The position numbers and the translations under genes are program-made. A DNA stretch of 64,000 bases from a virus. Lineage: Duplodnaviria; Caudoviricetes. The DNA is taken from positions 1-64,000 of IMG/VR virus record IMGVR_UViG_3300017963_000032. One strand, given 5' to 3'. Below are positions 2,506 through 52,601 of this stretch, piece by piece (the stretch's first letter is position 1; every line of letters begins with the position of its first letter). Below the pieces are notes generated by a model, which ran no database searches, was not told the DNA's origin, and saw only the letters and a list, made by a program, of their open reading frames with translations.

Positions 2506-3981
2506 ATGGGAGAAATAGCAAATTTGGAAGTCGGACTTAAAATCTCCGACAGAAGCGTAGACGCTATGGTGAATGACATAGAGAAGAAACTCTCAAATAA
2601 ACTAGGCTCTGGCATGGGAAAAGGAGGCGGTGCAGGAGCAGCACCTAAAGGAAAAGCTGGAGGCGGACTTCTTCAATCATTAAGCGGTGGAGGAGGATTG
2701 TTTGGAGGAATCAGTAAAATGATTCAAGGAGCAATCTCTGCTCTCGGACCTATTGGTGTTGCAATCGTTGCGATAGGAGCTGTTGTTATGACTATGAAAC
2801 CTTTGGTTAACATGGTCAAGATAATTCTCAGGTTATTGACAGAACTTCTTAGACCAATAGCTGATGTTATTCTAGTACTGCTGATGCCAATTCTGGCAAT
2901 ACTTAAACCCATAGTTAAAGTAGTGCAAGCTATAATGATGCCGTTCCGTAAGGCTGCGATGCAGATGGCTGCACAAGGAATGAAACAGATAGCGGGAGGA
3001 GATGTTGCAGGAGGTCTAGCAACTTCCATGGGGGCATTTAATTTAATGTTCACAGGATTACAAATGATTATCTTCGAGATGATTTCTGAGATTATGAAGA
3101 TGTTAATGGAGCTTCAAGGATTCCTTGTAAAAGCACTGACCGCACCTATGTTCTTTATTGCAGGATTGATTGCAAAACTTATGGATTCACTCCTTGGAAC
3201 AGGAACTATGTTTCAGGAGATGGTCACGAATGCGCAATCAATGACATGGAACGCTATAGATTCTATAGTTAATCTAGGGAAGGCCACCATTGATAATTTC
3301 TTCGGCGGGGTAATCATGACGAACTTAGCGTTGCTCGAGAACACCATGATGACTTTATTAGGCCCTGATGGAAATGCCATGATTAACCTAGAAGAAATGG
3401 GTAAGATGCTTGACGGAATATTTCAAGATTCAACAGTGAGTTTTGCTGATTTAGGAAAACAATTAGAAGATGCCAACACAGAAATAGGGGGGGTCTTCGG
3501 ATTGTTTGAAGCTAACATAAGTGATTTAGCAACTATCTGGAGCACTGTTATGGGCCAGATGGGAGATGATTTAAAGAGTGCTATTGCAAATGCATTGTCA
3601 GGGATACCTTCAGGCGGTGGCAAAGGTGATGAGAAAGGATTATTTCAAAGAGCAGCTGACTGGGTCAGAGGACATAAAGGTACAGTTATAGGTGCTGGAA
3701 TCGGAATGGCTGGAGCAGGTATTCCCGGTGCAATAGCTGGAGGAGTAATCGGTAGCAGGTTCAATGATTTCGTGATGAGGCCCGGACAAAAAGCAGTACC
3801 ATTTAGCCCACAAGATACACTTATAGGAACCAAAGGAGGACTTCCCGGAGCTGGAGGCTCAGGACCAATTACAATAAACATAAGCGCTGGACAGATTGGA
3901 AGAGATACAGAAGTCAGAGCTCTTGCAGCGAAGTTGGCTGACAATCTAAATAGAGAAATGCAAAGGAGGTCAAGTTACTAA
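2506..3981 (+). CDS. Tape measure protein
   Basis: 491 aa Gly/Ala/Met-rich helical protein with DFVMRPG-type C-terminal motif, after chaperones. Confidence 0.8.
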   Translation: MGEIANLEVGLKISDRSVDAMVNDIEKKLSNKLGSGMGKGGGAGAAPKGKAGGGLLQSLSGGGGLFGGISKMIQGAISALGPIGVAIVAIGAVVMTMKPLVNMVKIILRLLTELLRPIADVILVLLMPILAILKPIVKVVQAIMMPFRKAAMQMAAQGMKQIAGGDVAGGLATSMGAFNLMFTGLQMIIFEMISEIMKMLMELQGFLVKALTAPMFFIAGLIAKLMDSLLGTGTMFQEMVTNAQSMTWNAIDSIVNLGKATIDNFFGGVIMTNLALLENTMMTLLGPDGNAMINLEEMGKMLDGIFQDSTVSFADLGKQLEDANTEIGGVFGLFEANISDLATIWSTVMGQMGDDLKSAIANALSGIPSGGGKGDEKGLFQRAADWVRGHKGTVIGAGIGMAGAGIPGAIAGGVIGSRFNDFVMRPGQKAVPFSPQDTLIGTKGGLPGAGGSGPITINISAGQIGRDTEVRALAAKLADNLNREMQRRSSY

Positions 3982-42395: not shown

Positions 42396-42612
42396 TATAG
42401 ATTTACAATGGTTGCTTGGATTACCAGCATACATTAGGTGTCCAAAGTGCAAGGAGAAAACAAGAAGCTGGTTTGATGATTATGACATTGACTGCGGAGA
42501 ACCTCAATCTAAAGATGGAGTCATGACATTGGATGTACAATGTGACCATTGTGAGGAAGAGATACAGTTCAAAGTAGAAATAAAACAAAAGGAGAGTGAT
42601 TCAGATGAGTAA
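42385..42612 (+). CDS. Zn-finger protein
   Basis: CPKC...CDHC. Confidence 0.55.
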   Translation: MGHNIDLQWLLGLPAYIRCPKCKEKTRSWFDDYDIDCGEPQSKDGVMTLDVQCDHCEEEIQFKVEIKQKESDSDE

Positions 42613-43366
42613 GTTAGTATTCGCAGACATTGACTTTTTTAAGAAAGCAATGAAATCAATAAGTGTTTTGTTATTGGAAGCAACAATAGAGCTTGACCAA
42701 GAAGGTATGAGAATCAAAAGCATGGACCCTGCAAACGTGGCCATGGTTGATTTCTACATCAGGGCTGATACTTTTCCAGAGTATGATGTGAAAGAAGAGG
42801 GAGAAAAGCACACATTCAAGGTTGAGACTTTGCTAGCATTCTTGAAAAGAGCTAATGCAAAAGACATAGTGACTCTAGAGTTTGATGAGAAGATGCACGT
42901 AAAGATTAAGAGCGAGAACAATAAAGAGTTCGGAACTACATTGATTGGTATTGAACCAGACAAAACTCCAGACACTGTCAAGTTAGATTTTGATTTTGAA
43001 ACAACAATGCCTACAGAACAATTCAATTCAGTATGCAATGATATTGCAACCATGGGTGACAGTGTGGTGCTTGTTGGAGATAAGGAAAGGATTGTCATGA
43101 GGGCAGAATCTGACAAGATGGTTGATAGCTTTGGAGAGATTAAATTGTCAGCTGATAACAAGGTAAAGATGAAGGAAGGAGTTGAAGCTGCAAAGGTCAA
43201 GCTGAGTTCGGAGTATATCAACAAGATTGTAGACTCAATCAAGAAGATAACAGAGAATGTTAAGATTCAGTTTGGAAATGATTATCCAATACTATTGACG
43301 TATTCAATGGCAGATAGAGCTTCTATAAGCTTCTTGGTTGCTCCAAGGGTGGACAATGAGGGATGA
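42605..43366 (+). CDS. pcn: PCNA sliding clamp
   Basis: SMDPANVAMVD; FLVAPRV C-terminus; about 253 aa. Confidence 0.92.
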   Translation: MSKLVFADIDFFKKAMKSISVLLLEATIELDQEGMRIKSMDPANVAMVDFYIRADTFPEYDVKEEGEKHTFKVETLLAFLKRANAKDIVTLEFDEKMHVKIKSENNKEFGTTLIGIEPDKTPDTVKLDFDFETTMPTEQFNSVCNDIATMGDSVVLVGDKERIVMRAESDKMVDSFGEIKLSADNKVKMKEGVEAAKVKLSSEYINKIVDSIKKITENVKIQFGNDYPILLTYSMADRASISFLVAPRVDNEG

Positions 43367-43678: not shown

Positions 43679-44401
43679 ATGAAAGTACCAAAATTCCCAA
43701 GCATAAAAGGTGTTGAATTGTACCTAGTAGGCGGATGCGTGAGAGATTCCCTAATGGGTCAGACTCCAAAAGATTTGGACTATGTTATGATAACAGACAA
43801 GTCTTTCGAAGAAGTCGTAAAGCAAATATCAGAGACACCTAACTGCAAAGTATTCCAAGCTAAGGCAGAGTTCTTAACAATCAGATGCAAGATACAAGAC
43901 CAGATAGTAGACTTAGTCATGCCAAGAACTGAAGAAGGATACTCAGACCATAGAAGGCCAGACGAAGTTAAAGGAACAGATTCTCTATTTGAAGATTCCA
44001 AGAGAAGAGACTTCACTATAAATTCAATGTACATGGACAAAGAAGGAACCATACTTGATTATCATAAAGGAGTGGTTGACCTGAAGAATAAAGTCATCAA
44101 GTGCGTAGGCAACCCAAGGGAAAGATTCCAAGAAGATTACCTAAGAATACTCAGAGCTGTCAGGTTCTCTTGCAGGTTTGGATTCAAAATAGATAAGAGC
44201 ACACAAAATCATATGATTAAATTATCAGAGAGATTAACTGATGTTGAACAGAACAGAGTCAGGGAAGAACTAAACAAATCATTGAAGGCAAATCCTAAGT
44301 GGACTATGAAATACATCGAAGCATTGAACTTATATAAAACATTATCAGAATTAGGATTACATTTTGAGCTTAGCTCTAAGGGGGGAGAAAATGATAAGTA
44401 A
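43679..44401 (+). CDS. cca: Class II tRNA nucleotidyltransferase (CCA/poly(A) polymerase family)
   Basis: VGGCVRD...KDLD; RRDFTIN; EDYLRILRAVRF. Confidence 0.9.
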   Translation: MKVPKFPSIKGVELYLVGGCVRDSLMGQTPKDLDYVMITDKSFEEVVKQISETPNCKVFQAKAEFLTIRCKIQDQIVDLVMPRTEEGYSDHRRPDEVKGTDSLFEDSKRRDFTINSMYMDKEGTILDYHKGVVDLKNKVIKCVGNPRERFQEDYLRILRAVRFSCRFGFKIDKSTQNHMIKLSERLTDVEQNRVREELNKSLKANPKWTMKYIEALNLYKTLSELGLHFELSSKGGENDK

Positions 44402-44825
44402 AGCTATGATGTTTGCATTCGAGAAACATAGAGGACAACTATGTGACGAAGGAAAACCATACATACTGCACCCATTCAAGGTTGCAGATATAGTAAGGCT
44501 AGTCACAGATGATAAAGAAATTATTGCAGCTGCATACCTGCATGATACAATAGAAGATACAGCAACAACTTACGACGAATTAGTTGAAGAGTTCAGCAAG
44601 AGAGTTGCAGACTTAGTGATGGAAGTATCACATGAAGGACAGAAGGATGAAGTAGGATATTATTTTCCTAGATTGAAAACACAAGGAGGAATCATGCTCA
44701 AGTTCGCAGATAGATTATCCAACCTCTCAAGGATGAGCGCTTGGGATGATGGAAGAAAAGAACATTATTTAAGAAGGTCAAGATTTTGGAAAAGGAAACC
44801 CGGGGACAGGTGGGAGAAAAAATGA
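44391..44825 (+). CDS. HD-domain hydrolase (SpoT/MESH1-like)
   Basis: KHRGQ...PYILHP...LHDTIEDT...KFADRLSNL. Confidence 0.88.
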   Translation: MISKAMMFAFEKHRGQLCDEGKPYILHPFKVADIVRLVTDDKEIIAAAYLHDTIEDTATTYDELVEEFSKRVADLVMEVSHEGQKDEVGYYFPRLKTQGGIMLKFADRLSNLSRMSAWDDGRKEHYLRRSRFWKRKPGDRWEKK

Positions 44826-45013: not shown

Positions 45014-45228
45014 GTGAACCACAAAAACATAACAAAGAATTCATCGACGAGACAAGGAAAGCTCTTGAAGAAAACTTGAAGGGAATGTGCAACAAGAAGG
45101 CAACAGTGAGAAAACTTATTGACTTAGACAAAAGAAGCAGAGTCATAATCACTAAGGAAGTCAAGGCACTTAGAACAAAACATAAAGAGATTGAGAAGGA
45201 AGTACTAGGTTCAATATTTAAAGATTAA
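45010..45228 (+). CDS. Hypothetical protein
   Basis: GGAGGCG RBS. Confidence 0.55.
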   Translation: MSEPQKHNKEFIDETRKALEENLKGMCNKKATVRKLIDLDKRSRVIITKEVKALRTKHKEIEKEVLGSIFKD

Positions 45229-45248
45229 ACCGAAAGCTTTATATTTAT
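45226..45248 (+). promoter_or_regulatory. BRE-TATA promoter for Y RNA-Ro60 locus
   Basis: AACCGAAAGCTTTATATTT about 25 nt upstream of first repeat. Confidence 0.65.
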
Positions 45249-45269
45249 GTTGTCATTTTCATGTTGTTC

Positions 45270-45357
45270 GGGTGGCGTAGAATAGGGTTACTTCGCTTGA
45301 AACGAAACCAAAATAGGCTGTAAGAGCCTATTGTCTATACCCTGTTTGATTGTACCC
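45270..45357 (+). ncRNA. Y RNA-like ncRNA 1
   Basis: GGTGGCGTAG-N5-GGTTACTTCG motif; 5'/3' pairing AATAGGGT/ACCCTGTT and GGGT/ACCC; upstream of Ro60. Confidence 0.65.
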
Positions 45358-45374
45358 CCACAACTCATGTTCAT

Positions 45375-45499
45375 GGTGGCGTAGTCGAGAGTTACTTCGA
45401 CTCGTAATCGAGAGGTCGCAGGTTCGAATCCTGTCATGTGCTTCGGCACGTGTAGCTCAGTTTGGTAGAGCGCTAACGTACTCTCGACGACTGTTCCCC
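45375..45499 (+). ncRNA. Y RNA-like ncRNA 2 (YrlA-type tRNA mimic)
   Basis: GTCGAGAGT(T)AC/GTACTCTCGAC stem enclosing anticodon arm, T arm GCAGG-TTCGAAT-CCTGT, tetraloop-closed acceptor stem and D arm. Confidence 0.85.
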
Positions 45500-45538
45500 T
45501 TCATAATCATAAGCACTAAGGTACCAGATTGACAGTAT

Positions 45539-45600
45539 GCGGTGACGTAAACAAGGGATACTTCGTTCCTAAGAAAAGACCCTCGTTGCTTGTTTCCCGC
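45539..45600 (+). ncRNA. Y RNA-like ncRNA 3 (minimal)
   Basis: GGTGACGTAA-N4-GGGATACTTCG variant; GCGG/CCGC closing stem. Confidence 0.55.
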
Positions 45601-45619
45601 ATTCATTATCATAGTCATT

Positions 45620-45733
45620 GGGTGGCGTAGTAAAGAGTTACTTCGGTAAAAAACAAACTTCAAAATTTGTTCAACTGGTTCAAATCCAGAATCCCTTCGG
45701 GGTTTCAAAACGTACTCTTTACGTCCGTTCCCC
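45620..45733 (+). ncRNA. Y RNA-like ncRNA 4 (T arm and closed acceptor stem, no D arm)
   Basis: GTAAAGAGT(T)AC/GTACTCTTTAC stem; CTGG-TTCAAAT-CCAG; AATCCC-TTCG-GGGTTT. Confidence 0.7.
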
Positions 45734-45771
45734 CGGACAATTTAATAAATAAGAACATGAGGTGTTTGAAC

Positions 45772-47319
45772 ATGAGTAAATACAACAAGCCTACTAGAGG
45801 CAAAGATAAGACTGTAAACCACGAAGGAGATGTGGCTTACAAATTGGATAGCAAAACAGAACTGTATTCTACAGTCTGCACATCAATGTTGCAGAACAAG
45901 TTCTACGAGAAAGAAGATGAAACTCTGAATAGAATCAGAACTCTCATCAAGACTACAGACCCAGAGTTTGTGGCTAAGCTAGCAGTGTATGCAAGAGAGA
46001 AGATGTACCTTAGAAGTATACCTTTAGTCCTTGCAGTTGAGCTGGCAAAGGTCCACAACGAGGACAGCATTCTTGGAAGAACTGTTAGCAGAATAGTCCA
46101 AAGGGCTGACGAGATAACAGAGATTCTAGCTTACTACAAAGAAGCTAACAAGGATAACTGGGAGACTGAAAAGAATTCTGGAAAGACAAAGCATCTTGGA
46201 AGATTATCAAAGCAGATAGCTAAAGGTCTGAACTTTTCTTTTAACAAGTTCGACGAGTACCAGTTTGCTAAGTACAACAGAAAGGGCCAAGTTACTTTGA
46301 AGGATGCACTATTCCTAGTTCACCCAAAGGCAAAGAATAAAGAGCAGCAAAAACTGTTTGATAAGATTGTCAATGGAGAACTAAAGACACCTGAAACTTG
46401 GGAAGTTAAGATGAGTGAAGGTGGAAAGGAAGGAGCTGACAAGAAAGAAGTCTGGGAGAAAATGATTAGCTCAGGCAAGATGGGTTACATGGCAATGCTG
46501 AGAAACCTAAGAAACTTCTTGGAAGCTGACGTGAGCCAGAAGCACATGGCTGATGTAGCGCAGACTCTTGCAGACCCTGAGAAAGTTAGAAAGAGCAAGC
46601 AGTTACCATTCAGATTCTTGAGCGCTTACAAAGAGCTGAAAGGAAACAAGAGCTCTAAGGCTACAATGATTTTGAACGCTCTGGAAGAAGGAGTGATTAC
46701 AAGCATTGAGAACTTGAAGGGCTATGATTATAACACAACTGTTTGCGTAGCTTGTGATGTTTCAGGAAGTATGCAGCATTCAATCAGTGACAGAAGCAAG
46801 GTCGAACTTTACGACATTGGATTGCTACTTGGTATGCTATTGCAGTCAAGATGCAAGAGTGTAATCACTGGTATATTCGGAGACACTTGGAAGATTAAAG
46901 CACTTCCTCAAAAGAGCGTCTTGCAGAATGTGATGGACTTGCATAACATCGAAGGAGAAGTTGGTTACTCAACTAACGGGTACAAAGTAATCCAAGACTT
47001 AATCACTAGAAAGGAGAAAGTGGATAAGATTATGATATTCACTGACTGTCAGATGTGGAACAGTTACTCTGGAAGTAGAGGAAGCTTTGCTACTTGTTGG
47101 TCTGAATACAAGAAGATTCATCCAGAAGCAAAACTCTACTTGTTTGATTTGTCAGGTTACGGAAACACTCCTGTATCTGTTAAAGGAGATGGAGTTTACT
47201 TGATTGCAGGATGGAGCGAGAAAGTCTTTGATATGCTAGCTGCAATAGATAAGGGCAGTAATGCAGTGAAGGAGATTGAAAGCATCGACTTGTTCAAGAA
47301 ACCAAGCAAGAAGAAATAG
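45772..47319 (+). CDS. rsr: Ro60/Rsr RNA-binding protein (TROVE + vWA)
   Basis: NHEG..AY; DEYQFAKY; PETWE; YMAMLRNLRN; QLPFRFLSAY; MIDAS DVSGSM; FTDCQ. Start moved to ATG 45772 (GAGGTG RBS) because upstream codons overlap ncRNA 4. Confidence 0.95.
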   Translation: MSKYNKPTRGKDKTVNHEGDVAYKLDSKTELYSTVCTSMLQNKFYEKEDETLNRIRTLIKTTDPEFVAKLAVYAREKMYLRSIPLVLAVELAKVHNEDSILGRTVSRIVQRADEITEILAYYKEANKDNWETEKNSGKTKHLGRLSKQIAKGLNFSFNKFDEYQFAKYNRKGQVTLKDALFLVHPKAKNKEQQKLFDKIVNGELKTPETWEVKMSEGGKEGADKKEVWEKMISSGKMGYMAMLRNLRNFLEADVSQKHMADVAQTLADPEKVRKSKQLPFRFLSAYKELKGNKSSKATMILNALEEGVITSIENLKGYDYNTTVCVACDVSGSMQHSISDRSKVELYDIGLLLGMLLQSRCKSVITGIFGDTWKIKALPQKSVLQNVMDLHNIEGEVGYSTNGYKVIQDLITRKEKVDKIMIFTDCQMWNSYSGSRGSFATCWSEYKKIHPEAKLYLFDLSGYGNTPVSVKGDGVYLIAGWSEKVFDMLAAIDKGSNAVKEIESIDLFKKPSKKK

Positions 47320-47520
47320 AAAGCTTTAAATATTTCTTTATTATTCTTTTTTTGTTTTATTTGAAACTAGGTGATTAAAGCAATATGTTATACAACACGA
47401 CAACCGGAATGTGTACATCAGACTTACTTAATAGTCTGGCGTCTCATTGATTCGGGCCTGTCGTTGTTAAACTTTTTCTGCGCTTTGTTGTTTGATGACG
47501 ACAAGGCAAAGCTATATCAT

Positions 47521-50560: not shown

Positions 50561-51445
50561 ATGGCAAAAGAAAAATTCAGAGAGAAACTACATCTCTCAC
50601 CAAAGAACAAGAAACAACTTGAAGTTATCAATGAAATTATAGATGAGTACGCAGCAGAAGGTTACAAGCTAACATTAAGGCAGCTTTATTACCAGTTAGT
50701 GTCCAGAGACATAATCCCTAACAAACAATCAGAGTATGCAAAACTTAGCAACTTACTTGTTAAAGGAAGGATGGCTGGTGTTGTTGACTGGGAAGCTATC
50801 GAAGACAGAATCAGAGTACCATTTATTCCTTACTGGGTACATGGAGTTAAGGATGCAATAGATGACACAATCAGTCAGTACAGATTAGACAGGCAAGACG
50901 AACAAGAAGTTTACATAGAACTCTGGGTAGAGAAGGACGCATTGTCAGGAGTGCTGAAGAGAATCACATCACACTATCATATCAATTTGATGGTTAACAG
51001 AGGGTACAGTTCTTGCACTGCAATGCATGATGCATACAAAAGATTCAGAACACAAGCTATAGCCAATGAGAAGAAGATTGTAATACTGTATCTTGGAGAC
51101 CACGACCCAAGCGGTCTGGATATGATTAGAGATATAAGGGACAGGTTATTTGAGTTCGGAGTTGATGTAACAGTCAAACCAATAGGACTTACTATGGCTC
51201 AGATTAAGCAATACAATCCACCACCAAACCCTGCAAAGATTACAGACCCAAGGGCAAAGGATTATATCGAAGAGCACGGAAACACTTCATGGGAAGTTGA
51301 CGCTCTGAATCCTAAAGTCTTGCACCAGTTAGTAAGAACAAATGTCGAAGGCATGATTGACATGGGCTTGTTCGAAGAGATGCTAGAGAAAGAGAAAGAG
51401 CACAAGAAAGAACTGGAGAGACTGCGTGAGGAAAGCAAAAAATGA
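50561..51445 (+). CDS. Topo VI-A/Spo11-like TOPRIM protein
   Basis: TLRQLYYQL; WVEKDAL; RGYSS; YLGDHDPSG; WEVDAL. Confidence 0.8.
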   Translation: MAKEKFREKLHLSPKNKKQLEVINEIIDEYAAEGYKLTLRQLYYQLVSRDIIPNKQSEYAKLSNLLVKGRMAGVVDWEAIEDRIRVPFIPYWVHGVKDAIDDTISQYRLDRQDEQEVYIELWVEKDALSGVLKRITSHYHINLMVNRGYSSCTAMHDAYKRFRTQAIANEKKIVILYLGDHDPSGLDMIRDIRDRLFEFGVDVTVKPIGLTMAQIKQYNPPPNPAKITDPRAKDYIEEHGNTSWEVDALNPKVLHQLVRTNVEGMIDMGLFEEMLEKEKEHKKELERLREESKK

Positions 51446-52227
51446 AGGAGAAGATTAAAGGACTCTGCAAGCAGATAGAGAAAGAAAAAGGAATCAAGAT
51501 ACTATTTGCTGTAGAGAACGGAAGCAGAGCTTGGGGCATGGAGAGTGAAGACTCAGACTATGACATCAGGTTCGTCTATCACAGGGAAGTCAAGGACTAT
51601 CTTTGCCTGAACCCAAGTGATGAAGTAATCAAAGCAAGCTTCGATAAGGAAGGAAACAAAGCTCCAGCTGAAGGATGTTTCTTTGATATTGTAGGATTCG
51701 ATTTGTTCAAGTTCGCAAGGATGTTGAGCAGCTCTAACCCTCAAGTCATTGAATGGCTTTGCACGGACATTGTTTACTTAGGAAAGCAGAACAAAGTGTT
51801 CCAAGAGTATGCAGAGAAGTGCTTCAAGCAAATCAGTTTGTACTATCATTACAAGAGCATGTGCAAGCAGAACTATTTGAAGTATTTAAAGTCAGGCAAT
51901 CTAGTTACATACAAGAAGTATCTATATGCAATGCGAGGATTAATCAACGCAAGGTATGTAGCTAACTTCAAAGTATTGCCGCCTATAAACTTCATTCAAA
52001 CATTGGAGACTCTTGATAAATTACTTCCTTTGTATGTTGTTGAAAGGTTGAAACAGATTGTTGAGCTCAAGAAAGAAGGAAAAGAAAAGGACATCATAGA
52101 GAACGAGACCAAGATAGATAATTACATTGAGGAGTTCTTGAAGGATGACAGCGAAGCTCCAAAAGAGAAGAAGCTTTCAACACAGACAGAGCTCAATCAA
52201 GAAGTACAAAAAATATTGGGGGTGTAA
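51442..52227 (+). CDS. RlaP/YcgL-like Pol-beta superfamily nucleotidyltransferase
   Basis: AVENGSRAWG.ESEDSDYDIRFVY; YYHY..M; KKYLYAMR. Confidence 0.85.
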   Translation: MKEKIKGLCKQIEKEKGIKILFAVENGSRAWGMESEDSDYDIRFVYHREVKDYLCLNPSDEVIKASFDKEGNKAPAEGCFFDIVGFDLFKFARMLSSSNPQVIEWLCTDIVYLGKQNKVFQEYAEKCFKQISLYYHYKSMCKQNYLKYLKSGNLVTYKKYLYAMRGLINARYVANFKVLPPINFIQTLETLDKLLPLYVVERLKQIVELKKEGKEKDIIENETKIDNYIEEFLKDDSEAPKEKKLSTQTELNQEVQKILGV

Positions 52228-52229
52228 GG

Positions 52230-52601
52230 ATGGTTGAAATATTGTTTAAACAATTCGTGATAGTGCCTAAGAGACCTAAGATGTCTCCCGGTAAGATTGC
52301 AAGCCAAGTAGCTCATGCAACATTCATGGCACTTGAGAATCAGAAGGAACTCAATAAGCATCAAACAGATATTATAGACACTTGGAAACATAACGGGATG
52401 TGTGTCATAGTATTGCAATGCAAGAGCTCATCACAGTTGATGGGGATTGCTAAGTACTTGGACCAATGGAAGATTCCAAACCATCTTTACATTGATGAAG
52501 GGATGACAGAGGTTGAGATGGGAACTCCTACAGCTCTTGCAACAGGCGTACTTCCTTTAGATAAACATTGGATGCTTGGTCAGTTGGAGTTGTTAAAATG
52601 A
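52230..52601 (+). CDS. pth2: Peptidyl-tRNA hydrolase, archaeal/eukaryotic Pth2 type
   Basis: KMSPGKIASQVAHA; DEGMTEV..GTPTA. Confidence 0.88.
   Translation: MVEILFKQFVIVPKRPKMSPGKIASQVAHATFMALENQKELNKHQTDIIDTWKHNGMCVIVLQCKSSSQLMGIAKYLDQWKIPNHLYIDEGMTEVEMGTPTALATGVLPLDKHWMLGQLELLK

What the first reader, a model, noticed from the sequence alone, without database searches (positions are those of the whole stretch)
45226..47319. Ro60 with an array of four Y RNA-like genes in an archaeal virus
Seen: after a BRE-TATA promoter, four repeats begin GGTG(G/A)CGTA(G/A)-N-G(T/A)TACTTCG and are closed by complementary 3' strands. Stems differ in sequence but keep pairing and a bulged U (GTCGAGAGT-T-AC/GTACTCTCGAC; GTAAAGAGT-T-AC/GTACTCTTTAC; AATAGGGT/ACCCTGTT), which is covariation visible inside one genome. 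They sit directly upstream of an intact TROVE-vWA gene. Known: Ro60-Y RNA particles are characterised in animals and bacteria (Yrn1, YrlA) and YrlA occurs next to Ro in some phages; GGCGTAG resembles the GNCGAAN0-1G Ro-binding motif as I recall it. Inference: a virus-encoded multi-Y-RNA Ro60 system working in an archaeal cell, each RNA possibly tethering a different partner (exosome, CCA enzyme, tRNA nucleases). I am not aware of a described archaeal-virus example.
Basis: partly seen in the sequence, partly recalled or inferred. Interest (0 to 1): 0.92.

Follow-up and report, generated by a model that had tools for sequence, protein, structure and literature searches.

The report
Archaeal virus Ro60 with four Y RNAs
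A complete 79-kb tailed virus of an archaeon carries a gene for the ring-shaped RNA-surveillance protein Ro60 preceded by four small RNA genes that share one Ro60-type "handle"; the kit is the kind known from bacteria and phages, here found in a virus of the third domain of life.

Summary
Four units (45270-45359, 45375-45499, 45539-45600, 45620-45734) share GGUG(G/A)CGUA(G/A)-8 nt-UACUUCG, with 0 matches expected by chance. Each closes into the same two-helix handle just upstream of an intact Ro60 gene (45772-47319; TROVE, MIDAS motif, fold match to Xenopus Ro60).

A covariance model built only from other loci finds exactly these four units in the 79-kb genome. Unit 2 also hits Rfam YrlA (E 2e-8, below gathering). 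Its core re-joins into a perfect tRNA-Thr(CGU) cloverleaf.

The same handle flanks Ro60 in 79 of 80 Bacteroidota genomes and in many phage contigs, in arrays of up to 8. One handle base pair shows all four Watson-Crick combinations. The RNAs are therefore real members of a large YrlA-like family that Rfam captures only below threshold.

The virus is archaeal: PCNA, PTH2, four tRNAs with 36-61-nt introns, BRE/TATA promoters. Two related contigs also carry the module.

The novelty is less than claimed. TROVE genes are already noted in HGTV-1, Asgard Nidhogg viruses and Borgs. Phage Ro60 with upstream Y RNAs is characterised biochemically. This scan has flagged similar arrays, including one archaeal-virus case, on other DNA. 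Y RNA genes in archaeal viruses were not found described. Function is inferred only.

The parts
45233..45246 (+). Archaeal BRE/TATA-like promoter AAAGCTTTATATTT, about 25 nt before unit 1. It is the only such element ahead of the array.
   Evidence: The same 14-mer (0-2 mismatches) also sits at other operon starts on the + strand: 43617, 47320, 48282, 53704, 55809.
45270..45359 (+). Y RNA-like unit 1 (90 nt). It has the handle, an anticodon-loop-like hairpin (UUCG-CUUGAAA-CGAA) and a second hairpin (AAUAGGCU-GUAAG-AGCCUAUU).
   Evidence: R1 scores 47.6 bits, E 1.5e-10. Fold z = -2.8. It resembles L168 unit 4.
45375..45499 (+). Y RNA-like unit 2 (125 nt). The handle carries a complete circularly permuted tRNA-like module: anticodon arm, AGGUC, T arm, 7-bp acceptor closed by UUCG, D arm.
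   Evidence: Rfam YrlA scores 43.8 bits, E 2e-8, below the gathering score of 69. R1 matches the 5' half at E 1e-3. The 3' strand ACUCUCGA-CGACUGUU-CCCC is seen by inspection.
45396..45472 (+). The tRNA-like core of unit 2. Joining 45446-45472 to 45396-45441 gives a 73-nt cloverleaf.
   Evidence: ARAGORN calls the re-joined sequence tRNA-Thr(CGU) with a 7/4/5/5-bp cloverleaf. It is at most 53/73 identical to any of the 15 ARAGORN-called viral tRNAs compared.
45539..45600 (+). Y RNA-like unit 3 (62 nt). This is the minimal form: the handle plus a small apical loop. The covarying pair is A-U here instead of G-C.
   Evidence: R1 scores 59.5 bits, E 8e-14, over the full model length.
45620..45734 (+). 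Y RNA-like unit 4 (115 nt). It has the handle, a UAC-UUCG-GUA hairpin, a further hairpin, a T-arm-like hairpin (CUGGUUCAAAUCCAG) and a closed acceptor-like hairpin (AAUCCC-UUCG-GGGUUU). There is no D arm.
   Evidence: R1 scores 53.3 bits, E 5e-12, over 45619-45735. Fold.
45759..45764 (+). Shine-Dalgarno-like GAGGTG, 7 nt before the Ro60 start codon.
   Evidence: Sequence.
45772..47319 (+). Ro60 gene (515 aa). It has a TROVE/HEAT-repeat ring and a vWA domain with the MIDAS motif D329-x-S331-x-S333.
47320..47333 (+). The next BRE/TATA-like promoter (AAAGCTTTAAATAT), immediately after the Ro60 stop. It marks the end of the transcription unit.
43679..44825 (+). Context: a class II CCA-adding/poly(A) polymerase-family enzyme (43679-44401) and an HD phosphohydrolase (44364-44825), directly upstream.
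51442..52601 (+). Context: an RlaP-family RNA-repair nucleotidyltransferase (51442-52227) and a PTH2 peptidyl-tRNA hydrolase (52230-52601).
42596..43366 (+). Context and host marker: a PCNA sliding clamp.

Best explanation
This is a virus-encoded Ro60 ribonucleoprotein module of the bacterial/phage YrlA type, carried by a tailed virus of an archaeon.

Shown:
- An intact Ro60 gene.
- Four adjacent same-strand RNA genes that share a conserved, covarying handle. The handle has a terminal helix with a bulged U, a G-C pair followed by a covarying N-N' pair, an asymmetric CGUAG / 8-nt loop, an 8-bp inner stem and a YUAC-UUCG motif.
- Four different apical modules, one of which is a complete permuted tRNA.

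Inferred:
- One archaeal promoter at 45233 drives a Y1-Y2-Y3-Y4-Ro60 precursor. This is the arrangement of M. smegmatis YrlA/YrlB, which are processed from one precursor upstream of rsr.
- Host nucleases cut the precursor into RNAs of 62-125 nt.
- Each RNA binds the outer face of the Ro60 ring through its handle.
- The variable modules, above all the tRNA-shaped one, gate the ring or tether it to host tRNA-binding or RNA-degrading factors.
- During infection the particle handles damaged or misfolded RNA together with the neighbouring CCA-adding enzyme, HD hydrolase, RlaP nucleotidyltransferase, PTH2 and the virus's own tRNA genes (19 called here). The likely purpose is to keep translation going against stress or host tRNA-targeting defences.

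Origin (inferred from identity, a FastTree tree and the shared handle): the protein and its RNAs most likely entered the archaeal virus lineage together from the Bacteroidota/phage gene pool and were placed under archaeal transcription signals.
For: Repeats:
- Four exact pattern matches against 0.00 expected.

Independent model:
- R1 was built from 29 units of other loci with no window sequence.
- It finds only these four places in the window and in the whole 79-kb genome: 59.5, 53.3, 47.6 and 22.2 bits.

Structure:
- An unconditioned table of the pair N/N' gives 222 of 233 paired: C-G 111, U-A 73, G-C 20, U-G 12, A-U 3, G-U 3.
- On the seed alignment (units pre-selected for pairing), 13 of 14 pairs show double changes. 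Slid controls drop to 43-53% paired.
- Inside the window, unit 3 has A-U where the other units have G-C.

YrlA link:
- Unit 2 matches RF02553 at E 2e-8.
- Its core re-joins into a perfect cloverleaf.
- The YUAY and GNCGxA motifs of YrlA are present.

Linkage to Ro60:
- The same handle lies beside Ro60 in 79 of 80 Bacteroidota loci.
- All 66 model hits in viral loci are on the Ro60 strand.

Protein:
- TROVE at 1.8e-38 and the MIDAS DVSGS motif.
- AF2 pLDDT 84.5.
- Foldseek hits to 1yvp/2i91 (TM 0.73-0.76), Thermus phage Ro60 9l5y and Rsr 2nvo.

Archaeal host:
- PCNA and PTH2.
- Four tRNAs with 36-61-nt introns at position 37/38.
- BRE/TATA boxes at operon starts.
- HGTV-1 is the best cultured match for both TerL and Ro60.

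Lineage:
- L165 and L168 share the tRNA order and the introns.
- tRNA-Met is 87% identical between the window and L165.
- L168 carries four Y RNAs and L165 two model hits plus a handle-bearing tRNA-like unit.

Precedent:
- Phage phiLo Ro60 binds two upstream Y-like RNAs (PMC12135203).
Against: - There are no expression, processing or binding data.
- Unit 2 is below Rfam's YrlA gathering score (43.8 against 69). Units 1, 3 and 4 have no Rfam hit.
- The handle reads GNCGUA, not the published GNCGAA.
- R1 cannot span the long inserts of unit 2, so its 3' strand rests on inspection.
- PNPase, the partner that bacterial Y RNAs tether, is not known in archaea (my knowledge). The effector is therefore unknown.
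- No RtcB is encoded by the virus.
- The closest named Ro60 relatives are bacterial (54-59% identity), and the CCA enzyme is the bacterial class II type. The archaeal host assignment therefore rests on other genes.
- The host lineage is unresolved.
- The promoter 14-mer is not statistically enriched when two mismatches are allowed (8 found against 5.4 expected).
Confidence: 0.8

Rival explanations
1. The units are cis-acting parts of the Ro60 mRNA leader, not stable trans-acting RNAs. Ro60 would bind its own 5' UTR handles and autoregulate translation or stability.
For: There is a single upstream promoter and no obvious promoter or terminator between the units and the ORF. The array ends 37 nt before the start codon.
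Against: In the sister virus contig L168, in L166/L027 and in most Bacteroidota loci, the same RNAs lie downstream of Ro60 or are separated from it by other genes. A 5'-leader role therefore cannot be the conserved function. M. smegmatis YrlA and YrlB are cut from such a precursor and bound in trans (PMC4201824).
Confidence: 0.07
2. Unit 2 (and perhaps unit 4) is a permuted pre-tRNA. In an archaeal cell it would be cut, ligated and CCA-tailed into a working tRNA-Thr(CGU), with the handle serving as an excised intron-like element rather than a Ro60 site.
For: The re-joined core is a flawless cloverleaf with a 7-bp acceptor stem. Archaea have a splicing endonuclease and RtcB, and process permuted tRNAs. 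A CCA-adding enzyme is encoded 1 kb upstream. M. smegmatis YrlA is cut by RNase P and CCA-tailed. Wang et al. raise this possibility for YrlA (10.1101/312249). L165:1263-1388 shows the non-permuted form of such a chimera.
Against: I found no bulge-helix-bulge motif at the handle/tRNA junction (inspection only). The same permuted architecture occurs in Bacteroidota and their phages, which lack the splicing endonuclease. Units 1 and 3 have no tRNA part yet keep the handle. The anticodon-like loops differ among orthologues (CGU, UGU, CAA).
Confidence: 0.08
3. The contig is a bacterial (Bacteroidota) phage or a chimeric assembly, so the module is an ordinary phage Ro60/YrlA locus.
For: Ro60 is 54-59% identical to Bacteroidota proteins and the RNA handle is the Bacteroidota type. 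The CCA enzyme is class II. There is an SD-like site before the gene.
Against: The record has direct terminal repeats and is rated 100% complete. All genes lie on one strand with even composition. PCNA and PTH2 lie within 7 kb on either side. Intron-bearing tRNAs are present. The same promoter 14-mer flanks the module and other operons. The exact protein is seen on 3 contigs. Contigs L165 and L168 join Ro60 and Y RNAs to intron-bearing tRNAs independently.
Confidence: 0.04

Closest known systems
YrlA/YrlB Y RNAs with Rsr (Ro60) of Salmonella Typhimurium and Mycobacterium smegmatis, including mycobacteriophage copies (Chen et al. 2014, PMC4201824; Wang et al. 2018, 10.1101/312249; Rfam RF02553)
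   Same: The RNAs lie within 4 kb of Ro60 on the same strand. The 5' and 3' ends pair into a Ro60 handle with a GNCG-A-type motif and YUAY. The effector module is a permuted tRNA with T arm, closed acceptor and D arm. There is more than one Y RNA per locus. In M. smegmatis the RNAs are upstream of rsr and cut from one precursor.
   Different: The host is an archaeal virus. There are four RNAs. The handle reads GNCGUA(G/A) with a bulged U. Unit 2 keeps a full anticodon arm and a 5-nt variable loop, which S. Typhimurium YrlA lacks. The score is below Rfam's gathering cut-off. There is no rtcBA operon context.
Thermus phage phiLo Ro60 with Yrl1 and Yrl2 (PMC12135203; PDB 9KOP, 9L5Y)
   Same: A phage-encoded Ro60 with several Y-like RNA genes directly upstream. 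PDB 9KOP/9L5Y are the only PDB sequence hits (E 2e-22) and among the top fold hits.
   Different: The host is bacterial. That system has two RNAs with a CGAA bulge. Binding to Ro60 and to host PNPase was shown experimentally there; nothing is tested here, and archaea are not known to have PNPase.
Ro60-adjacent RNA arrays of Bacteroidota genomes and related phage contigs
   Same: The handle sequence and geometry are identical (model R1). Arrays hold 2-8 units mixing minimal, T-arm-only and full tRNA-like modules. Ro60 is 54-65% identical.
   Different: Those are bacterial genomes, or viral records that showed no PCNA or intron-bearing tRNAs (five records checked). Their arrays are mostly downstream of Ro60. 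The window's array is upstream, under a BRE/TATA promoter, in a genome with PCNA and intron-bearing tRNAs.
TROVE/Ro60 genes already noted in archaeal mobile elements: HGTV-1 gene 129 (NC_021328), Asgard 'Nidhogg' viruses (10.1101/2021.07.29.454249), Borgs (PMC11208441)
   Same: A Ro60/TROVE protein encoded by a virus or extrachromosomal element of archaea. HGTV-1 is also the best cultured match for TerL and has an RlaP-like nucleotidyltransferase nearby.
   Different: Only the protein is noted there; I found no partner RNAs described. HGTV-1 Ro60 is only 34% identical, and its two candidate Y-like elements do not reach significance with R1.
Vertebrate Y RNAs (Rfam RF00019)
   Same: The ends pair into a helix with a single bulged pyrimidine on the 5' strand next to a conserved internal loop. 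Several paralogues occur in a cluster.
   Different: There is no Rfam match at E up to 10. The bulge is U rather than C, there is no oligo-U/La tail, and the effector modules differ.

Membership tests
Ro60 (TROVE + vWA ring protein) | TROVE / HEAT-repeat domain | tested here: met
   Pfam PF05731 at E 1.8e-38, 133 bits. PHROG 850 'RNA-binding protein' at 8.5e-63.
Ro60 (TROVE + vWA ring protein) | C-terminal vWA domain with MIDAS motif | tested here: met
   PF25045 vWA_Ro60 scores 26.9 bits, just under its 27.7 cut-off. D329-V-S331-G-S333 is invariant in 22 homologues. The fold alignment covers the vWA domain.
Ro60 (TROVE + vWA ring protein) | Whole-protein ring fold like solved Ro60 structures | tested here: met
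   The AF2 model has pLDDT 84.5 and pTM 0.86. Foldseek gives 1yvp/2i91 at TM 0.73-0.76 and E about 1e-16; 9kop, 9l5y and 2nvo also match.
Ro60 (TROVE + vWA ring protein) | Binds Y RNA handle and misfolded RNA | not testable with these tools
   Needs EMSA or co-purification.
YrlA (Rfam RF02553; Chen et al. 2014) | Reaches Rfam gathering score (69 bits) | tested here: not met
   Unit 2 scores 43.8 bits, E 2e-8. Units 1, 3 and 4 have no hit. Bacteroidota and phage relatives also score only 36-44 bits.
YrlA (Rfam RF02553; Chen et al. 2014) | GNCGAAN0-1G motif near the 5' end | tested here: not met
   All four units read G-N-C-G-U-A-(G/A), one substitution from the published motif.
YrlA (Rfam RF02553; Chen et al. 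2014) | tRNA-like domain: T arm, closed acceptor stem, D arm | tested here: met
   Unit 2 has all of these plus an anticodon arm, and the re-joined core is called tRNA-Thr(CGU). Unit 4 has a T arm and closed acceptor only. Units 1 and 3 have none, so they are YrlB-like at most.
YrlA (Rfam RF02553; Chen et al. 2014) | Within 4 kb of Ro60 on the same strand | tested here: met
   The units lie 37-502 nt upstream of the start codon on the + strand.
   Unit 3 scores 59.5 bits, unit 4 53.3 and unit 1 47.6 over the full length. Unit 2 scores 22.2 bits on its 5' half only. There are no other hits in the 79-kb genome.
   Window units show G-C three times and A-U once. In the family 222 of 233 units pair, with all four Watson-Crick types.
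Tailed virus of archaea | Caudoviricetes hallmark genes on a complete genome | tested here: met
   TerL, tail tube and a Mu-F-like head protein. Direct terminal repeats, rated 100% complete.
Tailed virus of archaea | Archaeal-type genes and RNA features | tested here: met
   PCNA and PTH2. tRNA-Ser, Ile, Arg and Trp carry 36-61-nt introns at position 37/38. The best cultured TerL match is the haloarchaeal virus HGTV-1.
Tailed virus of archaea | BRE/TATA promoters | tested here: inconclusive
   Six + strand copies sit at operon starts. The count with up to 2 mismatches (8) is not above the shuffled expectation (5.4).
Tailed virus of archaea | Direct host link (CRISPR spacer, provirus) | not tested
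   No spacer search was available. The PCNA homologue search gave no named relatives.
Vertebrate-type Y RNA (RF00019) | Match to the Rfam model | tested here: not met
   No hit at E up to 10 in 45150-45800.

The most novel reading that the evidence does not exclude
A whole ribonucleoprotein, Ro60 together with its partner RNA genes, crossed from the Bacteroidota/phage gene pool into a lineage of archaeal tailed viruses and works in cells that are not known to have PNPase. Its tRNA-shaped RNAs would then engage archaeal machinery such as the exosome, RNase P/Z, the splicing endonuclease or the viral CCA-adding enzyme. Unit 2 might even be matured into a usable tRNA-Thr(CGU), or act as a decoy for host tRNA-cleaving defence nucleases.
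Probability: 0.15. Interest if true: 0.8.

Novelty: new member of a known kind. Interest (0 to 1): 0.52.

Why it matters
Ro60/Y RNA particles have been studied in animals, a few bacteria and one phage. For archaea and their viruses only the protein gene has been noted. This locus and its relatives L165 and L168 give concrete candidate Y RNAs for an archaeal system, so the partners of Ro60 in a cell not known to have PNPase can be tested directly.

The locus also shows that a protein and its cognate RNAs can move between domains as one unit and be re-wired to archaeal promoters.

A side result is that the Bacteroidota-type handle family defined here is large: hundreds of units in arrays of up to eight. 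Rfam's YrlA model detects it only below threshold, so many genomes carry unannotated Y RNAs. This scan has flagged similar handle arrays repeatedly on other DNA.

Tried and rejected
Tools that did not run or did not help:
- The IQ-TREE 'quick' search did not finish in 288 s, so the tree is FastTree only.
- Reviews PMC10870794, PMC6047535 and PMC6542706 are not held.

Searches that found nothing useful:
- Rfam at gathering thresholds finds only tRNAs in the window.
- R1 on HGTV-1 is not significant (E 0.14 and 7.7). Its two Y-like elements rest on fold geometry only.
- PCNA (PF00705) is absent from five other Ro60-bearing viral records and their tRNAs have no introns. I found no evidence that those are archaeal viruses.
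- RtcB is absent from the virus.
- The PCNA homologue search gave only three distant, unnamed hits, so it gives no host lineage.

Method limits:
- R1 cannot bridge the roughly 90-nt insert of unit 2.
- MFE folds of two intron-bearing tRNAs did not display a clear bulge-helix-bulge. The intron calls rest on ARAGORN and Rfam.
- Two pattern searches failed only because I mis-counted the spacer and were corrected.

Idea rejected:
It occurs only in units 2 and 4.


Full report
**What is there.** The window is the first 64 kb of a 79,464-bp IMG/VR virus record with direct terminal repeats, rated 100% complete. All long ORFs lie on the + strand. The genome encodes a tail tube protein, a large terminase and a Mu-F-like head protein.

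At 45772-47319 lies a 515-aa ORF behind a GAGGTG ribosome-binding site. It matches Pfam TROVE (E 1.8e-38) and, just under threshold, the Ro60 vWA domain. It carries the MIDAS motif DVSGS, which is invariant among 22 homologues. An AlphaFold2 model (pLDDT 84.5, pTM 0.86) aligns over its full length with Xenopus Ro60 (1yvp, 2i91; TM 0.73-0.76), human Ro60, Deinococcus Rsr and the Ro60 of Thermus phage phiLo. The protein is a Ro60.

**The four repeats.**
- GGTGRCGTAR-N8-TACTTCG occurs exactly four times, at 45271, 45375, 45541 and 45621. Shuffles give 0.00 expected.
- Reading the sequence, each unit forms the same handle:
  - a terminal helix of four to five pairs;
  - a bulged U;
  - two more pairs (G-C, then N-N');
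  - an asymmetric internal loop (5' CGUAG/A against 7-8 nt ending GU(U/A));
  - an eight-pair inner stem;
  - the conserved (U/A)UACUUCG.
- The inner stems differ in sequence but all pair. In unit 3 the N-N' pair is A-U where the others have G-C.
- The apical parts differ:
  - Unit 3 (62 nt) is minimal.
  - Unit 1 (90 nt) has an anticodon-loop-like hairpin and a second hairpin.
  - Unit 4 (115 nt) has a T-arm-like hairpin and a UUCG-closed acceptor-like hairpin but no D arm.
  - Unit 2 (125 nt) has an anticodon arm, AGGUC, a T arm, a 7-bp acceptor closed by UUCG, and a D arm.
- Rfam's YrlA model matches unit 2 at 43.8 bits (E 2e-8), below the gathering score of 69.
- Joining 45446-45472 to 45396-45441 gives a 73-nt sequence that ARAGORN calls a perfect tRNA-Thr(CGU) cloverleaf. 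It is at most 53/73 identical to any of the 15 ARAGORN-called viral tRNAs compared, so it is not a recent copy of one of them.

**Is the handle a real, conserved structure?**
- I fetched Ro60 loci from IMG/VR (354 relatives, 80 kept), from one genome per species (581 relatives; the best 80 are all Bacteroidota except one MAG labelled Singulisphaera, 53-59% identical) and from metagenomes.
- The same 5' motif followed by UACUUC lies beside Ro60 in 79 of those 80 genomes and in 32 viral loci. A rule-based harvest gave 348 distinct units, in arrays of up to eight. The bulge is U in 331 of them.
- I tabulated N against N' without requiring them to pair. 222 of 233 units pair: C-G 111, U-A 73, G-C 20, U-G 12, A-U 3, G-U 3.
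- On an alignment of 29 short units from other loci, 13 of 14 pairs show changes on both sides. Sliding the partner by one to three columns drops pairing from 99% to 43-53%. The seeds were selected for pairing, so the unconditioned table is the cleaner evidence.
- A covariance model (R1) built from those 29 units, with no window sequence, finds in the window, and in the whole 79-kb genome, only the four units:
  - unit 3 at 59.5 bits;
  - unit 4 at 53.3 bits;
  - unit 1 at 47.6 bits;
  - unit 2 at 22.2 bits on its 5' half, because the model cannot span its insert.
- In 69 viral loci all 66 hits lie on the Ro60 strand.
- Rfam's YrlA model hits the tRNA-bearing units of Bacteroidota and phages at only 36-44 bits. 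This is a large, divergent YrlA-like subgroup that Rfam does not annotate at its threshold.
- Comparison with published YrlA features:
  - The motif GNCGAAN0-1G differs from GNCGUA(G/A) by one base (PMC4201824).
  - The conserved YUAY is present as UUAC or AUAC.
  - As in M. smegmatis, the RNAs lie upstream of the gene behind one promoter.

**Is the virus archaeal?**
- A PCNA gene lies at 42596-43366 and a PTH2 peptidyl-tRNA hydrolase gene at 52230-52601. PCNA and PTH2 are the archaeal/eukaryotic types by established knowledge.
- ARAGORN with introns finds tRNA-Ser, Ile, Arg and Trp with 36-61-nt introns at position 37/38. Rfam aligns three of the corresponding 108-132-nt stretches (Ile, Arg, Trp) to the whole tRNA model.
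- AAAGCTTTATATTT lies about 25 nt before unit 1. Near-identical boxes stand at five other operon starts. The loose pattern is not statistically enriched.
- Among GenBank phages the best match for both TerL and Ro60 is the haloarchaeal virus HGTV-1.
- Two metagenome contigs are relatives. L168 carries the same tRNA order with introns in Ile and Arg. L165 has intron-bearing tRNAs and a tRNA-Met 87% identical to the window's.
- Both relatives carry the module. L168 has four Y RNAs downstream of Ro60, one of them tRNA-like and one resembling unit 1. L165 has Y RNAs upstream.
- In a FastTree tree these Ro60s fall with the window in a supported eight-member clade (97). That clade sits among viral contigs and next to the Bacteroidota clade. 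HGTV-1 is distant.
- Five other Ro60-bearing viral records show no PCNA and no intron-bearing tRNAs. They are probably bacterial phages.
- Taken together, I read this as transfer of the protein together with its RNAs from the Bacteroidota/phage pool into an archaeal virus lineage. The direction is an inference from the tree.

**Context and mechanism.**
- Upstream lie a class II CCA-adding-type enzyme and an HD hydrolase.
No RtcB is encoded.
- By analogy with Rsr/YrlA and with phiLo Ro60/Yrl1-2, which bind each other and host PNPase (PMC12135203), I propose the following steps. They are inferred, not shown:
  1. One precursor is made from the promoter at 45233.
  2. It is processed to four RNAs.
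  3. The handles dock on the Ro60 ring.
  4. The variable, partly tRNA-shaped modules gate the ring or tether it to host factors.
- Archaea are not known to have PNPase, so the effector is open.

**What is and is not new.**
- Phage Ro60 with adjacent Y RNAs is known (22 phages in Chen et al. 2014; phiLo in 2025).
- TROVE genes are annotated in HGTV-1, Nidhogg viruses of Asgard archaea and Borgs.
- I found no paper describing Y RNA genes in an archaeal virus.
- This scan's notebook holds many similar handle arrays. These include an archaeal-virus Ro60 with an upstream Y-like RNA on other DNA and phage arrays of four and eight RNAs.
- I therefore file this as a new member of a known kind, of moderate interest.

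Noticed in passing
L165:1263-1388: This is a tRNA-like gene in normal (non-permuted) order: GGGAAAG acceptor, D arm, T arm, CUUUCCCA. Its anticodon arm is replaced by a complete Ro60 handle closed by a GUUA loop, with the handle's 3' strand first and its 5' strand second. It is the mirror arrangement of unit 2, in a relative of the window virus, directly before two ordinary handle RNAs and Ro60.
   Followed up: partly
L084 (HGTV-1, NC_021328): 896-968 and 3845-3935: These are two candidate Y-like elements in a cultured haloarchaeal virus, each about 25 nt behind GAAAssTTTAAGTAGT. One lies directly upstream of the TROVE gene 129 and one before tRNA-Asp. In the first, the minimum-free-energy fold gives a terminal helix, a 5-nt/8-nt internal loop and an 8-bp stem followed by AUACUUCAA (z = -2.8); the second has a similar stem and the same motif but a less clear fold (z = -0.6). 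Model R1 is not significant on either (E 0.14 and 7.7).
   Followed up: partly
L085-L164 (Bacteroidota genomes), e.g. L088, L144, L151, L164: Arrays of up to 8 handle RNAs lie next to Ro60 in 79 of 80 genomes. They mix minimal, T-arm-only and full permuted-tRNA modules. Rfam YrlA reaches only 36-44 bits on the sampled tRNA-like ones, so these arrays would go unannotated at gathering thresholds.
   Followed up: partly
window 45360-45374, 45500-45538, 45601-45619: The spacers after the CCC(C) 3' ends share UCAU-rich tails (ACUCAUGUUCAU, UUCAUAAUCAUAAG, AUUCAUUAUCAUAGUCAU). Similar UUCAU(A/U)(A/U)U tails follow units in L006 and L026. They may be a processing or 3'-end signal.
   Followed up: no
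window 47334-47520: About 185 nt lie between the promoter-like box at 47320 and tRNA-Met. They contain a long inverted repeat (ACAACACGACAACCGG ... CGGGCCUGUCGUUGUU) and only a 54-codon GTG ORF. The nature of this stretch is unknown.
   Followed up: no
window 43679-44401: The CCA-adding/poly(A) polymerase-family enzyme is class II (PF01743), the bacterial/eukaryotic type, in a virus whose other informational genes are archaeal. With Ro60, the Y RNAs and RlaP, this suggests that a bacterial-type RNA-maintenance kit was imported.
   Followed up: no
window 45369-45442: ARAGORN in default mode miscalls part of unit 2 as tRNA-Thr(CGU). Automatic annotation of this genome would list a false 21st tRNA.
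   Followed up: yes
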